Source: Proteromonas lacertae (taxonomy: Eukaryota). From it: a stretch of 52,132 bases of DNA. The position numbers were made by a program, and so were the translations under genes. The stretch is taken from contig NGBS01000871.1 in assembly GCA_002245135.1 (NCBI GenBank), forward strand, positions 558,001 to 610,132, given 5' to 3'. The notes under the pieces were generated by a model that ran no database searches, had not been told where the DNA came from, and saw only the letters and a list, made by a program, of their open reading frames with translations. Shown here piece after piece: positions 4,799-34,215 of the stretch. Every line of letters starts with the position of its first letter. Position 1 is the first letter of the stretch.

Positions 4799-7700
4799 CT
4801 ATTCAATATAGAAGAACTTTTTAAATAAATCTTTCTTATCTTTTTCTGATATTCCTTCTAATTTTACGCTTTCTATTGATGAGAATATTTCTAAAAATGA
4901 TTCTAATTCTGTTTTATTTATATTCTCTTTTACTGTTAATAATAATGAACAATTTCGAAACAATTCTTGGTTTTCAATCATTAATCTCAACTCTTTTTCT
5001 TTTAATTCATTTCCTAATAGATTTATCTCTTTTAATGGTTTGAAATATTTTAATCTTTCTATTAACATCTTTAATCCTTTTTCACTCATTCCTACATCTA
5101 TTCAAATTATAAAATCACATGACATATGAAAAAATACTTGATAGATTTAATAAATTCATTATAACATTATTATCATCATAATCATAATAAAGAAATTTAC
5201 ATAAATATTTACATATAATCTCTACTCCTTCATCTCCAATTGGATTATTGATAATTGAAATATAGCTTGCACAATTTGGTAAAGAGTTAGTTAATTCTTT
5301 CAATCCTTTAGAAGTAATACTATTATTGGATAAATCAAGTCTTATATAATCAATCTGATTTATTAATGGAATATGAGAATCATTGATATTCATATCTATT
5401 TCATTATAAACATAAATTCTATACTTGACAAATCATTTAAATGTGTTTTATTTTTAATACAGTAATTCAAATAATATTCCAATTCTTCATTACTCCATGA
5501 TGAATTTTTCACTTCTATAAATGGATAATTCCTGCTTTCTAATGATTTTTCACAAATTAATTTTAAACCATTAAAACTGATATTATTTCCAGTTAGACTT
5601 ATTGATTCGTAATTTCCAATTAAATGTAATTTATCTGATAATAACTTTACACTTTCTTCATCTATTGAGATATTTCTCAAATTCATATATCTGTTATCAT
5701 AAAATAGATCTAAATTGTTTAGTAACAATTTTAATCCATCATTACCAATTGGATCATCTATAATACAAATTATATAAATTTTACATATTATATACTGAGA
5801 ATATCTATCTTTCTTATATTTTCATTCTCTTTCACATAACTAACTATACTTTCTACTCCATATGAATCTATATTATTATCACATAAATGAAGCTCAATCT
5901 TTTTATTGATATTCTTTAAACCATCTAATACATATTTCACTCCTACTGAAGATAATCCCATTTCTATTACATTACAAACAAAAACAACAATACTAGAACA
6001 AATTACTATACTATTAATATCTTCCAATAAAGGTAAATATGGAGATAATATTTTCATGCCTTCATCTCCAACTTCATTTCCTTCTATATGAAGATAAATA
6101 AGATTTGAAAATGAAGATAAATTATTAATCAGAATTTCAACACTTTTATATGTTAATTCATTATCTAAAGAATAAAAATATATTATTCTATACTAGACAA
6201 ATCTAATATTTGTATTTCATCTAATTCATTTAATCTTAAAGAAATAAATGACTTAAAAATATCATCATCAATATCACAATTACTCAAATCTAATTTATAA
6301 CAACGACCATCTTCTTCAGTGATATATTCTATAAATTCTGGAATGTCTTTATCAATCAACAATTCTTTATTGCTTTTATTAAAATCAAACCATATATTTG
6401 AAATAGGAAATTTGGAGAATAAGGCTTTTAATCCTTTTAAATGAATATTATTGTTGTATGTAATATCAATTTCACCAAGGTTTGGATATTTATATAATTC
6501 TAATGATAATAATTTCATTGATTCATCATTGAGATTCATCCCTCGAATATCCAATTCATTATCCTTGTTGATTAATAAATGTAAATATGGAAGTAATAAC
6601 TTGAAGCCTTTTGGACCAATCGGATTATCTATTTCATTATAATAATAATGAATAGAATAATATATACAATAAACAACTACATATTTCAATTTCATCATTA
6701 ATGGAATTGATGCAACAAATGATTCAATAAAACAAAATGAAAGGTCGAGGTATGATAAATCCAATACTTCTACATCAGATAATTGTGATAAATATAATGC
6801 AAATAATGGTTGATGTGTGATTGGAACATCAAATTTACTATAATTAACATCAAAACAAATATATTAATTATAAAAATACTAAACCAAAGTTCTTTAGGAT
6901 TGATTAGTTTCAATATTCTGAAAAAATATTTCATTCCGTCTTCACATAAACATATATTAAATGAATAAATCAATATTCTTTCTTCATTATTTCCAATATT
7001 AAATATCATTTCATCTAAATAAAAATCTTCATATCTTTTACATGAATGATGGATTTGAAATTTTAGTTTACCATTTATTGATGAATTACTTTTGTATACC
7101 TTCATCATCAATAGAATTGCCAAAATTCTTTCATTTGCTTTATCATTGTATAATTCTATTAATATATCTTGAATTTCTTCCCATTTTTTGCTTTCAACAT
7201 AATAATACATTGGAAATACTACTGAAAATGTAACAAGTGTATGATAATCATTATTCAAGATTATTTCTTTTCTTTCACTACATATCATTATATTATCATT
7301 ATCATCTCTCAACATCTCATTCATTTTTGTTATTTCTTTTTTCAATTCTTTTAAACTCAATCTATCTTCACTTTTCACTATTAACATTCTTTCTATCATT
7401 TCTTTCATCATATCATCATATTCTACATCTAAACTGTATTTACATCTCATGATGTTATTCATAGTTTTATTCATATTATTATCTTCATTAAATGGTAATC
7501 TCTTACAAATCATTTCATATAATATACATCCAATTGACCAAATCACACTTCTTTCATTTACTTCAAACCCATTTAACTCCTCAGGGCTTTTGAAGCATAT
7601 ATCATATAATCTCATGTCTTCTTCTTTTCTCAACTTATCTATGAATAAATCACATAGCTTTATATTACCATTTTCTTCACATACAATATTTGAACTCTTC

Positions 7701-8142
7701 AAATTACTCATTACCACATTATATTCACTCAATATCATTATAACATCACATAATAAACACATTATACCACAAATATCACATTTTTTGAAGGAATTATTTT
7801 GAACCATCTCTTTTAAATCTCCCAAGTAATATTCTCTTTCCAATACAACATTTTCACTGTAATTTTCCATTTCATACATTTTAGAAGGATAAACAAAAAA
7901 TAAACAACAATCTAACAAACAACAGTTGTTCTCATAGAAATATAACATTTTCTTTTCTTTCATTTTACAAATGTTCAATGTTTTTATTACTTTTTTTACG
8001 CAGTGATGTTCAAAAACTAAATTTACTTCATTAACATTCTTTTCTTTTTTTTTCTTTAATCTATAAAATAAATAATTAAAAATACTTCAGTATCAAATGG
8101 TAATATAAAAGATATCACTTCATCTAAAGAAGAAAACATCAT
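4799..8142 (-). CDS. pseudokinase + RNI-like LRR protein, copy 1 (apparent +1 frameshift in an A9 run near 8045-8053)
   Basis: Kinase-fold C-lobe with degenerate catalytic motifs (SNLKSSN, KLCDLF, SPEEL, WSIGCILYEM), followed by spliced LRR exons (LDLSNNSITSKGLKEL, NNPIGDEGVEII). Start MMFSSLDEV at 8142/8139. Confidence 0.75.
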
Positions 8143-31607: not shown

Positions 31608-34215
31608 TCTATTATTAACATATGCTATATTATAATTATCTTTGTATGTGAAGAAAAAATGAAAAGCTTTCTTTTTAAATTATTGGGGGAAACAATTCAA
31701 CCAAAATTTCGATATTTCTTTCTAAAACTCAAAATCGTCTCAAATGAATAATGATGAAGTATATAGGTAAATTATAATTCATAGAATATAAAAAGAGTGA
31801 AATATAATCACAGTGAAGTAGATTTGAGAATGGAAGAAGAAAGAGATAAATTAATAGAATGCTACAATAAGAAAACCAACGAAAATGTGTTATCAACGTT
31901 GTTAAAAATGAAATTATCCAAGGGAGATAATTCAATAAAGAATAATTTGAAATTCAAAATCTCTCACAGATGTGAAGAAGGGAATGAACGTTGTTTGGAT
32001 GAAATGATATTTGATATTGATACTGATAATGATGATAAAAATATTTTTGTAGTTGATTATTATTGTGTATGTTTTTGTGAAGAAGGGATGAGTTATTTCT
32101 TCAGAGTATTTAAACTAATCAATCCAACAAAACTTAGATTCAGTATAATTTATGTCATTTTCAATTGTGTAGATAATATTTCTATTCAAATCCAATATCA
32201 ATCATTATTTGGATCTTTATTCTCTCAATTATCAAGTCTAGAAGAGATAGAATTACATTCAATTTGTCTCGCTTCTGATTTTGTTGAATCATTTGTTAAA
32301 TCAATTCCGTTGATGAAATTGAAACATATACATCTTTCAAGTATATACTAATATTATGTTATATAAAATAATATTGATATAGCAAATCCAATTGGTTCAA
32401 AAGGCTTCAAATTATTACTTCCATATTTACATTTATTAATCAACAAAGATGATGAATTGGATCTTTGGGCAATGAATTTAAGTGATGAATCAATGATATT
32501 ATTATCATCAGAATTATACAAATATCCAAATGTTAAGAAAATTAATATTACAACGAATAATATTCATTCAAGAGGATTAAAAGCCTTATTCTCCAAGTTT
32601 CCTATATCAAAAGTGTTATTTGATCTTAATAGAAGTAAGGAATTATTAATAGATAAAGACATTCCAGATATATTGAAATACATCAAATATTTGGATTTGA
32701 GTGATTTAGAAATTGATGATGATTATTTCAAATCATTCATTTCTTTAAGATCAAATGAATTAGGAGAAATAGAAGGATTGGATTTAAGTAGTATATTTTG
32801 ATATTTTTATATTATTTAGATAATAAACTAGCACACAAAAGTATAGAAACACTTATAGACAATTTATCTTCATTATCAAATCTCAATAAACTTCAAGTTT
32901 ATGGAAATGAAATAGGAGATGAAGGAATGAAGATATTATCTCCACATATTCATTTATTGAATAGTGAAAATGTAATTAATTGTTCAAGTATAATTATAAT
33001 TATTATGTTTTGAATAGAGATGGGATTATCTTCGACAGGATTGAAGTATTTATTAGATGGTTTAAAGAATATTCATAAGAAGATCAAAAGACTTGATATA
33101 AGTGGTAATAATATAGATTCATCAGGAATAGAATATTTGATGAAATATATTAAAGAAAATGGTAATATCGAAACTATATCTATTCAAGGTATAGATAGTT
33201 AATGTTTTTATTTTTTGAATAGATAATCCTATTGGTAATAATGGATTTAAACTATTATCAAACAATTTAGATATGATAAAATATGATGGCAAAATTGATT
33301 TGAGTAGAATTTCAATAGATGATGAGAGTGTGATATTATTAACGAACAAAATCAGCTCAATAGGAAGATGTAATACAATAAATCTAAGTGGAAATGATAT
33401 TAGAATAGAAGGATTAAAATTAATTTGTTCAAAATCAAATTGGAATTATCCATTTATAATGATGAGAAATTCCTCCTGGACAGATGAAGAATTGGAATAT
33501 TATTTGAATTATTGCGTTGAAAAGAATAGATGTTCTTATAAAAGCCATGATTTTTCTAGTATAGATTATGAATTAATAATGAAATAGATATGAATATCAA
33601 TGATTGTCACATATCATTAATTAAACAGATCAATTATAAAACACTTTATTTATCACATAACATAATCAGTGCAAAGGGATTGAAAGAATTAACAGATTCA
33701 TTATCACAGCATCCACAATATATATCAATATTCAATAATCCAATTGGAGATGAAGGAATAGAGATAATATGTAAATATATAAATAGATTTATTGACTGTA
33801 AAAATGTAGGATGTGGGATTTTATTATCATTGTGTCTGTCAAGTATTTATATTAATATTATTTAATCTTATTTTGAATAGATATAGATATGAGTGAAAAG
33901 GGATTAAGAACGTTGATAGAAAAATTAAAAGAGGGTTGTTTAGAGAAGATAGATATATCAGGAAATGAATTAAATGAAAGAGAATTGAGATTAATGATAG
34001 AAAACAAAGAAGTATTTGAATGTTTAGAAGATTTGTTTATAACAATGAAAAAAGATATAGATATATCAGAATTGAAATCCTTTTTAAAGACATTTTCATC
34101 AATAAAAAGTATAAAAATAGATGGAATTTCAGAAGAAGAAAAGAAAGGGCTATCAGAAGAATTCTTCAATATAAAATAATCTATTATTAACATATGCTAT
34201 ATTATAATTATCTTT
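30132..34215 (+). repeat. near-identical direct duplication of about 1.5 kb (30132-31643 and 32704-34215; period 2572)
   Basis: All ORF translations are identical at an offset of 2572. Introns and 3' flank also match on reading. Confidence 0.95.
31744..34179 (+). CDS. kinase-less LRR protein, copy 4 (linker domain + LRRs, apparently intact)
   Basis: ATG at 31744 and 29-nt intron 31767-31795, then the linker domain (LIECYNKK..LDEMIF..CFCEEGMSYFFRVFKLINP) and phase-1 spliced LRR exons ending EEFFNIK*. Confidence 0.7.

What the first reader, a model, noticed from the sequence alone, without database searches (positions are those of the whole stretch)
4799..34179. Expanded pseudokinase-linker-LRR family: candidate intracellular immune-receptor repertoire
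Seen: four paralogs in 30 kb. The N-terminal kinase fold lacks the catalytic HRD (S/GNLKSSN) and a canonical DFG (CDLF, CDIG). A conserved linker (LDEMxF...CxCxxGMxYFF..LKLINP) and more than ten RNI-like LRRs follow, with no signal peptide or TM helix. Scaffold residues are conserved while the xxLxLxx strand residues vary strongly. Known: LRR sensors coupled to signalling domains with hypervariable concave faces and birth-and-death evolution characterise NLR-type immunity. Inference: an undescribed NBD-less cytosolic sensor family.
Basis: partly seen in the sequence, partly recalled or inferred. Interest (0 to 1): 0.8.

Follow-up and report, generated by a model that had tools for sequence, protein, structure and literature searches.

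The report
Protist pseudokinase-LRR family with variable faces
Four related genes near a chromosome end of a single-celled eukaryote encode a long leucine-rich-repeat solenoid, in three of them joined to a kinase that lacks its catalytic residue; the predicted binding face changes faster than the rest of the protein, so they likely bind different partners inside the cell, but most copies look damaged and an immune role is untested.

Summary
The family is real and I found no description of it, but it is less tidy than reported. There are four paralogs but only three kinase domains. A (8142-4799) is open only if two non-homologous splice sites are used. B has a nonsense codon and two frameshifts. 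C has a frameshift and has lost the linker plus three LRR strands in frame. D (725 aa) is clean but has lost the kinase in frame. C and D share 1,512 identical bases. The kinase is NEK/CAMK-like, without the catalytic Asp or glycine loop, but keeps Lys, Glu and the DFG Asp; three distant unnamed Logan lineages share this pattern. D has 21 RI-type LRRs, with six phase-1 introns at one repeat position. Concave-face residues are more variable than other polar LRR residues (35% vs 54% identity, p=1e-4; omega 0.64-0.71 vs 0.43-0.48), but omega is below 1, so positive selection is not shown. Best reading: a birth-and-death family of cytosolic binding adaptors, like Giardia inactive-Nek-ankyrin/Protein 21.1 with LRRs instead. 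Immunity is possible but unsupported; genome-wide count and expression could not be tested.

The parts
4799..8142 (-). Copy A: pseudokinase - cap ('linker') - 21 RI-type LRRs, 9 exons, 1019 aa if acceptor 8054 and donor 6884 are used; with the homologous donor 6879 the frame closes at codon 433
7316..8029 (-). Kinase fold of A: no GxGxxG, beta3 Lys and alphaC Glu kept, catalytic loop MSNLKSSN, CDLF, SPE
6881..7213 (-).
   Evidence: block pLDDT 80-90 for residues 291-391, under 50 for 247-280
4799..6837 (-). LRR array of A; exons of 170, 435, 171, 168, 333, 258 and 299 nt, six phase-1 introns in codon x8 of the strand motif
17817..21119 (-). Copy B: pseudokinase - cap - LRR, probable pseudogene: TGA at 19784-19782 (codon 425), one-base frameshift near 18172, deletion with frameshift near 18072
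29035..31607 (+). Copy C: pseudokinase with a frameshift near 29220-29240, joined in frame at about 29903 to the helix of LRR3 (cap and first three LRR strands missing)
31744..34179 (+). Copy D: 725 aa, all eight introns GTAT..TAG, no stop; keeps exon 1, intron 1 and about 14 N-lobe codons, then jumps in frame to the cap; 21 LRRs; no kinase
30132..31643 (+). 1,512-nt tract in C, identical to 32704-34215 in D (five introns and 36 nt past the stop included)
32704..34215 (+). The same 1,512-nt tract in D
32493..32657 (+). 165-nt tract in D with only 3 mismatches to B (19510 downward): likely gene conversion between copies 13 kb apart

Best explanation
These genes are a lineage-restricted, birth-and-death family of likely cytosolic binding adaptors, in which a 21-repeat RI-type LRR solenoid is predicted to grip a protein partner on its concave face and a kinase fold lacking the catalytic Asp would act as a non-catalytic docking or switch module. 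Shown: the architecture, the loss of the catalytic Asp and glycine loop in all six kinase lineages seen, purifying selection on kinase and scaffold, faster change at strand positions, sequence exchange, and in-frame loss of whole domains in C and D. Inferred: paralogs differ in ligand; the retained Lys, Glu, Asn and DFG-Asp may still hold Mg-ATP; ligand binding changes what the pseudokinase recruits (for example an active kinase); D is an LRR-only binder or competitor. The nature of the ligand (own protein or foreign) is open.
For: Pseudokinase: catalytic-loop position is Asn in A, B, C, P0037 and P0058 and Ser in P0036, while the activation-segment stretch LRKE..MR.YDI.F..PEE is conserved. 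The six form one clade, 100/99, against 8 other kinases. Kinase pairwise omega 0.42-0.45. AF2 kinase fold, mean pLDDT 78.7, best Foldseek hits NEK7 and NEK2. Concave face: identity 0.348 (68 columns) vs 0.543 (178 columns) under the same polarity filter, p = 1e-4; ML omega 0.64/0.71 vs 0.43/0.48, LRT p = 0.002. Persistence: 9 linker clusters, 35 members, all unnamed Logan; the P0058 cluster keeps kinase+cap+LRR1 open in 13 of 15 members. Turnover: lesions are concentrated in the family, 5 one-base indels in 10.7 kb against none found in about 26 kb of neighbouring coding sequence, p about 0.002, or 0.024 if A's two are not counted. B-D synonymous distance ranges from 0.12 to 0.64 between exons. 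Same logic in Giardia inactive Nek-ankyrin and kinase-less Protein 21.1 (PMC3218828, section 17 read).
Against: Only D is cleanly intact, and it has no kinase; no intact full-length kinase-to-LRR protein was seen anywhere (0 of 35 long hits are family members). Concave omega is below 1 (p = 0.001/0.015), which relaxed constraint would also give. B is broken, so part of the divergence may be neutral. The P0058 alleles differ at only 22 of about 410 positions and at no strand x site of LRR1, which is not a hypervariable allele series for that part. Only three independent LRR arrays were available. The kinase tree carries long-branch warnings.
Confidence: 0.5

Rival explanations
1. Immune-receptor repertoire: the LRR faces recognise viral or bacterial proteins and the pseudokinase is the signalling or decoy module.
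For: Variation is focused on x2, x3 and x5 (identity 0.25, 0.30, 0.32; omega 0.74-0.82, not distinguishable from 1). Clustering, pseudogenes and sequence exchange resemble Ectocarpus ROCO genes (PMC3341825, passages). Two-repeat 168/171-nt exons with borders at one strand position resemble NLRP3 and RNH1 (PMC6642158, passages). The genes lie 15-44 kb from telomeric arrays.
Against: No omega above 1 under ML; 0 of 12 exon tests. No NBD. Repeat number and order are conserved between paralogs, unlike the exon shuffling reported for ROCO. No death, TIR or pore-forming domain among the neighbours scanned. The exon pattern is shared with non-immune RNH1.
Confidence: 0.22
2. Mostly decaying duplicates of one or a few conserved genes: the strand positions vary because they are unconstrained, not because ligands differ.
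For: Three of four copies carry lesions. pN at x sites roughly equals pS in every exon. NG86 omega 1.11 and ML omega 0.64-0.71 both fit weak constraint.
Against: Scaffold omega 0.13-0.29 and kinase omega about 0.44 show long purifying selection on each paralog. Both large deletions are in frame and D is fully open. Relatives at 31-51% identity keep the architecture and introns.
Confidence: 0.15
3. Housekeeping scaffold role (cytoskeleton, cell cycle, trafficking), as for many NEKs, tropomodulin and CARMIL-type RI-LRR proteins, with paralogs dividing host partners.
For: Best structural hits are NEK7 and NEK2. Atlas neighbours of the cap+LRR1 piece include TMOD/LMOD LRR clusters, at a weak score. 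The P0058 subfamily is conserved and has low polymorphism.
Against: A face that binds a conserved host protein would be expected to be conserved (general knowledge), yet it is the fastest class here. No relative outside unnamed Logan contigs. NEK versus CAMK ancestry is unresolved (Snf1 ranks first by sequence).
Confidence: 0.13
4. Part of the picture is an assembly artefact: the identical C/D tract is a mis-join and the one-base indels are long-read homopolymer errors, so fewer but more intact genes exist.
For: All five one-base indels lie in or beside short homopolymer runs. 1,512 nt without a single difference, introns included. One unexplained in-frame TAG in a non-family gene at 17051-17053.
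Against: No frameshift was found in about 26 kb of neighbouring coding sequence. C and D have distinct 5' ends and distinct flanks. Both deletion joints are in frame, and D keeps a homologous first exon and intron. B's TGA is a substitution.
Confidence: 0.25

Closest known systems
Giardia Nek-ankyrin kinases and Protein 21.1 (PMC3218828; passages and section 17 read)
   Same: N-terminal, mostly catalytically dead kinase followed by a repeat solenoid; kinase-less relatives; pseudogenes and very recent duplicates in the fast-turnover subfamily; gut protist; function unknown.
   Different: Repeats here are RI-type LRRs, not TALM ankyrins; a family-specific folded cap lies between; the genes are intron-rich; NEK ancestry of this kinase is suggested, not shown; no homology claimed.
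[quoted passage not shown]
   Same: Clustered cytosolic repeat genes with high birth and death, exon borders in register with repeats, and variable concave residues.
   Different: No ROC-COR or NB-ARC here; 28-29-residue RI repeats; no repeat shuffling between paralogs; positive selection not demonstrated.
Animal NLRP/NOD receptors and ribonuclease inhibitor RNH1 (PMC6642158; passages read)
   Same: RI-class LRRs; two-repeat exons of 168-171 nt with borders at one strand position.
   Different: No NACHT, PYD or CARD; a pseudokinase sits at the N-terminus instead.
Plant ZED1/ZRK pseudokinases with the NLR ZAR1 (PMC6634424; listing and start of abstract only, the rest recalled)
   Same: A dead kinase works together with an LRR protein in the cytosol.
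   Different: There they are separate proteins, of RLCK type, and need an NB-ARC receptor; here they are fused and there is no NBD.

Membership tests
Pseudokinase (protein kinase fold without catalytic residues) | Protein kinase fold | tested here: met
   Pfam PF00069 above cut-off for A, B, C; AF2 and Foldseek
Pseudokinase (protein kinase fold without catalytic residues) | Loss of at least one of beta3 Lys, HRD Asp, DFG Asp | tested here: met
   HRD Asp is Asn or Ser in 6 of 6 lineages; Lys and DFG Asp kept where the sequence covers them
Pseudokinase (protein kinase fold without catalytic residues) | No phosphotransfer activity | not testable with these tools
   needs a biochemical assay
RI-like LRR class | About 28-residue LxxLxLxxN repeats with helical convex side | tested here: met
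   21 motifs; LRR_6 hits, each below the curated cut-off on single exons; RNH1 best PDB hit E = 1.1e-8
NLR (STAND receptor) | NACHT or NB-ARC domain with Walker A | tested here: not met
   no GxxxxGK[ST] in A or D; the one NACHT row (E = 0.0019, below cut-off) falls on the last LRR exon
NLR (STAND receptor) | C-terminal LRR sensor with variable concave face | tested here: met
NLR-type immune repertoire | Positive selection (omega > 1) on concave residues | tested here: inconclusive
   class omega 0.64-0.71, below 1; x2/x3/x5 0.74-0.82; three sequences give no power for site tests
NLR-type immune repertoire | Large genome-wide family, expressed and responsive to infection | not testable with these tools
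   no genome held; no sequencing run listed
ROCO / LRRK | ROC-COR GTPase tandem | tested here: not met
   no P-loop; no such Pfam hit
LRR receptor-like kinase | Signal peptide, extracellular LRR, TM helix, C-terminal kinase | tested here: not met
   kinase is N-terminal; no TM-level hydropathy
NEK kinase family | Kinase domain groups with NEKs | tested here: inconclusive
   NEK7 and NEK2 first by structure, Snf1 first and NEK2 close by sequence; the tree held no reference NEK set
Giardia Nek-ankyrin / Protein 21.1 | TALM ankyrin repeats | tested here: not met
   repeats are LRRs

The most novel reading that the evidence does not exclude
A gut protist runs an intracellular immune repertoire of single-chain pseudokinase-LRR receptors without any nucleotide-binding domain. 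Gene conversion and in-frame domain deletion generate LRR-only and cap-less variants, and NLRP-like two-repeat phase-1 exons allow splice variation of the binding face.
Probability: 0.2. Interest if true: 0.85.

Novelty: new variant of a known kind. Interest (0 to 1): 0.5.

Why it matters
How unicellular eukaryotes detect viruses and intracellular bacteria is largely open. A fused pseudokinase-LRR family with a fast-changing binding face is a concrete, testable candidate. It also shows that the 'dead kinase plus repeat array, with kinase-less siblings' design of Giardia has probably arisen again with another repeat type. If the ligands are the cell's own proteins, it remains an undescribed domain architecture and a new cap domain, of interest mainly to protist kinome specialists.

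Tried and rejected
Genome-wide count: no genome is held. Expression: no sequencing run was listed for 2500-9500; this is no evidence either way, and no reads were laid. Full-length relatives: 35 hits among 1,695 candidates of 703-2005 aa, best 28% identity, all kinase-only matches. JGI metagenome scans: 131 and 404 pattern matches, none confirmed. IMG/VR: 44 matches, none confirmed, so no support for a viral origin despite a giant-virus kinase cluster ranking first in the Atlas. LRR exon search gave 1 hit among 1,240 candidates (P0090), too few to add power. Cap fold: the D model is low in confidence (pLDDT 59.4); Foldseek gave no match at E <= 0.001, only weak LRR rows (LegL7 0.077, NLRP9 0.11, NLRC4 0.28); the PDB profile search gave nothing under E = 0.13; the VIA structural search never ran because the machine was busy. 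The idea that the CxCxxG motif is a degenerate first LRR is only weakly supported: the best window falls on it in 8 of 10 linkers, but shuffle p < 0.05 in only 2 of those (BLASTP E = 0.023). The NG86 omega of 1.11 for concave sites was set aside because the codon model with AT bias gives 0.64-0.71. IQ-TREE codon runs did not print omega. A reassigned TGA was rejected: the aligned residue is Gly or Ala in paralogs and P0055. The Blastocystis downstream motif TGTTTGTT was found after only 2 of 13 gene ends checked, so it was not used as evidence.
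Full report
Setting. The window is 26.6% GC, gene-dense, and ends in TTAGGG arrays at 48983-49606 and 51685-52129. Introns are mostly 25-47 nt and GTAT..TAG. A sirtuin gene holds an AT-AC intron with an ATATCCTTT donor and a branch-like TTTAAC (3102-3053). Short introns, U12 introns and TTAGGG telomeres are reported for Blastocystis (PMC5608401 and PMC12129017, passages). A Blastocystis-like stramenopile is therefore my inference; I did not test it by phylogeny. 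No whole genome was held and no sequencing run was listed.

The four copies. Self-comparison finds four paralogous LRR regions at 70-74% identity, apart from C versus D. Splicing by homologous introns gives the following. A (8142-4799, minus) yields 1019 aa only with an AAG acceptor at 8054 and a GTTT donor at 6884. The sites that match the paralogs (8061 and 6879) leave it one base out of frame each time. A GTAT..AAG intron does occur elsewhere in the window (16217), so A may be functional. B (21119-17817, minus) has TGA at codon 425, a one-base frameshift near 18172, and a deletion with frameshift in its last exon. C (29035-31607, plus) has a frameshift in the N-lobe and runs in frame from the end of the kinase into the helix of LRR3. 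D (31744-34179, plus) is a clean 725-aa frame with eight GTAT..TAG introns and no kinase. D keeps a first exon, a 26-nt first intron and about 14 codons that match C's start. The local score was 50; 6 of 5,206 windows scored as high, presumably those overlapping D or C themselves, though I did not print their places. D is thus likely a kinase-deletion derivative. C and D are identical over 1,512 nt. D also shares a 165-nt tract with B at 3 mismatches, and B-D synonymous distance varies from 0.12 to 0.64 by exon, which points to sequence exchange.

Are the lesions real? Of 42 junctions between long frames in 15 non-family regions, 34 are bridged by strict GTAT..YAG introns. The other eight were looked at one by one: minor-type or AAG introns, small exons or gene boundaries explain seven, and one is an unexplained in-frame TAG at 17051-17053. 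This is a parse test without homologues, not proof. Five one-base indels in 10.7 kb of family coding sequence against none in about 26 kb gives p about 0.002 (0.024 without A's two). Real decay is favoured, but all five lie in or beside homopolymer runs, so errors are not excluded.

The kinase. A, B and C match PF00069. Against Snf1, HRDLKPEN aligns with MSNLKSSN and ADFG with CDLF. The glycine loop is gone, while beta3 Lys, alphaC Glu, the catalytic-loop Lys and Asn, the DFG Asp and the PE motif remain. An AF2 model of A's second exon (391 aa, 38 rows) has mean pLDDT 78.7: a kinase fold to about residue 246, a low-confidence stretch at 247-280, and a confident domain after it. NEK7 and NEK2 rank first by structure; Snf1 ranks first by sequence. 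Pairwise omega is 0.42-0.45.

Relatives. A profile search gave 14 hits among 6,418 candidates; two are family members (P0036, 48%, E = 5.5e-87; P0037, 47%). The cap profile against 1.84 billion representatives gave 9 hits. All are unnamed Logan proteins, 35 members in all. P0058 holds kinase, cap and LRR1 in one frame; 13 of its 15 cluster members are open over 383-424 aa, and two are pieces. The catalytic position is Asn or Ser in all six kinase lineages, which form one clade (100/99; long-branch warnings). Several relatives end or read through at the same intron positions as B and D. No full-length relative was found, nor any in JGI or IMG/VR contigs.

Cap and LRRs. The 'linker' is a folded, family-specific domain with no Pfam or PDB match. 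Its last helix and strand may be a degenerate first repeat, weakly supported. D has 21 strand motifs, A 21 and B 20. The class is RI-like. Six introns fall in phase 1 in codon x8 of the motif, giving exons of 168, 171, 255-258 and 333-336 nt. NLRP3 has 171-bp two-repeat exons with borders at one strand position, in the same RI-type group as RNH1 (PMC6642158, passages). Repeat order is conserved between paralogs, so there is no sign of exon shuffling.

Selection. Using A, B and D (C duplicates D; the B-D converted tract left out), identity is 0.35 at 99 concave x columns and 0.56 at 204 other polar columns (p = 5e-5). With the same polarity filter on both classes it is 0.348 versus 0.543 (p = 1e-4). 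A fixed-sites codon model gives omega 0.64 (F3x4) or 0.71 (F1x4) for concave sites, 0.43-0.48 for other polar sites, 0.25-0.29 for strand scaffold and 0.13-0.14 for the rest. Concave differs from other polar sites (p = 0.002) and is below 1 (p = 0.001 and 0.015). For x2, x3 and x5 alone it is 0.74-0.82, not distinguishable from 1. None of 12 pairwise tests on the largest LRR exon gave pN(x) above pS. The face is therefore less constrained or diversifying; positive selection is neither shown nor excluded with three sequences, one of them broken.

Mechanism. I commit to a cytosolic adaptor: the LRR face binds a paralog-specific protein (inferred from fold class and variability), and the dead kinase serves as a docking or switch module, possibly nucleotide-bound (inferred from the retained Lys, Glu, Asn and Asp). 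New variants arise by duplication, conversion and in-frame domain loss (shown in the assembly). The closest working analogy is the Giardia inactive Nek-ankyrin family with its kinase-less Protein 21.1 relatives (PMC3218828, section 17). The immune reading leans on Ectocarpus ROCO-like genomic behaviour (PMC3341825, passages) but lacks omega above 1, an NBD, an effector domain and any expression data.

Novelty. Full-text searches returned no paper on such a family: 0 papers for pseudokinase + leucine-rich repeat + protist + gene family expansion, and nothing relevant in the listings. The main texts of two Blastocystis genome papers hold no 'leucine'. Their supplements were not read and may list such genes; subscription journals are not searched. 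Verdict: a real, apparently undescribed architecture, a new variant of the pseudokinase-plus-repeat-array kind; interest 0.5.

Noticed in passing
window 3053-3102 (-): 50-nt U12-type AT-AC intron (ATATCCTTT donor, TTTAAC branch-like site) in a Sir2-family gene, in frame; a second ATATCCTT donor lies at 38222 (+) in the RING ligase gene.
   Followed up: partly
window 21130-21216 and 25165-25250: 87 nt just upstream of copy B are 84% identical to the stretch upstream of the kinase gene starting near 25267, in the same orientation to each gene; possible promoter capture.
   Followed up: partly
window 48983-52132: Two TTAGGG arrays enclose a broken hAT transposase gene (50278-51685, DUF659 and hAT dimerisation) whose stop codon runs straight into the telomeric repeat; the sequence just before the first array looks like an inverted hAT remnant by eye.
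   Followed up: partly
window 41520-48044 (+): Large subtelomeric gene of three long frames (469, 807, 893 aa) joined by canonical introns, with P-loop-like motifs and an 18-copy 51-nt coding repeat at 44361-45282; no Pfam hit above cut-off; resembles Crinkler/RHS-like NTPases from recall only.
   Followed up: no
window 14299-17683 (+): Gene with an internal duplicated Cys-containing module (14379-14851 vs 14983-15406, 78%), a TM helix and a PH domain, with an in-frame TAG at 17051-17053 between TM and PH that no canonical intron removes.
   Followed up: partly
window 20126-20161 (-) and 6838-6879 (-): Intron presence differs between paralogs: B has an intron before the cap that A and D lack (P0036 and P0037 end there too), and B lacks the intron after the cap that A and D have.
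   Followed up: partly
window 25267-26968 (+): A separate kinase gene with HRD intact but no glycine loop and SDLG at the DFG position; not in the pseudokinase clade.
   Followed up: partly
window 8283-8354 (-) and 13350-13422 (+): tRNA-Pro(AGG) lies 140 nt upstream of copy A's start; tRNA-Glu(TTC) elsewhere.
   Followed up: no
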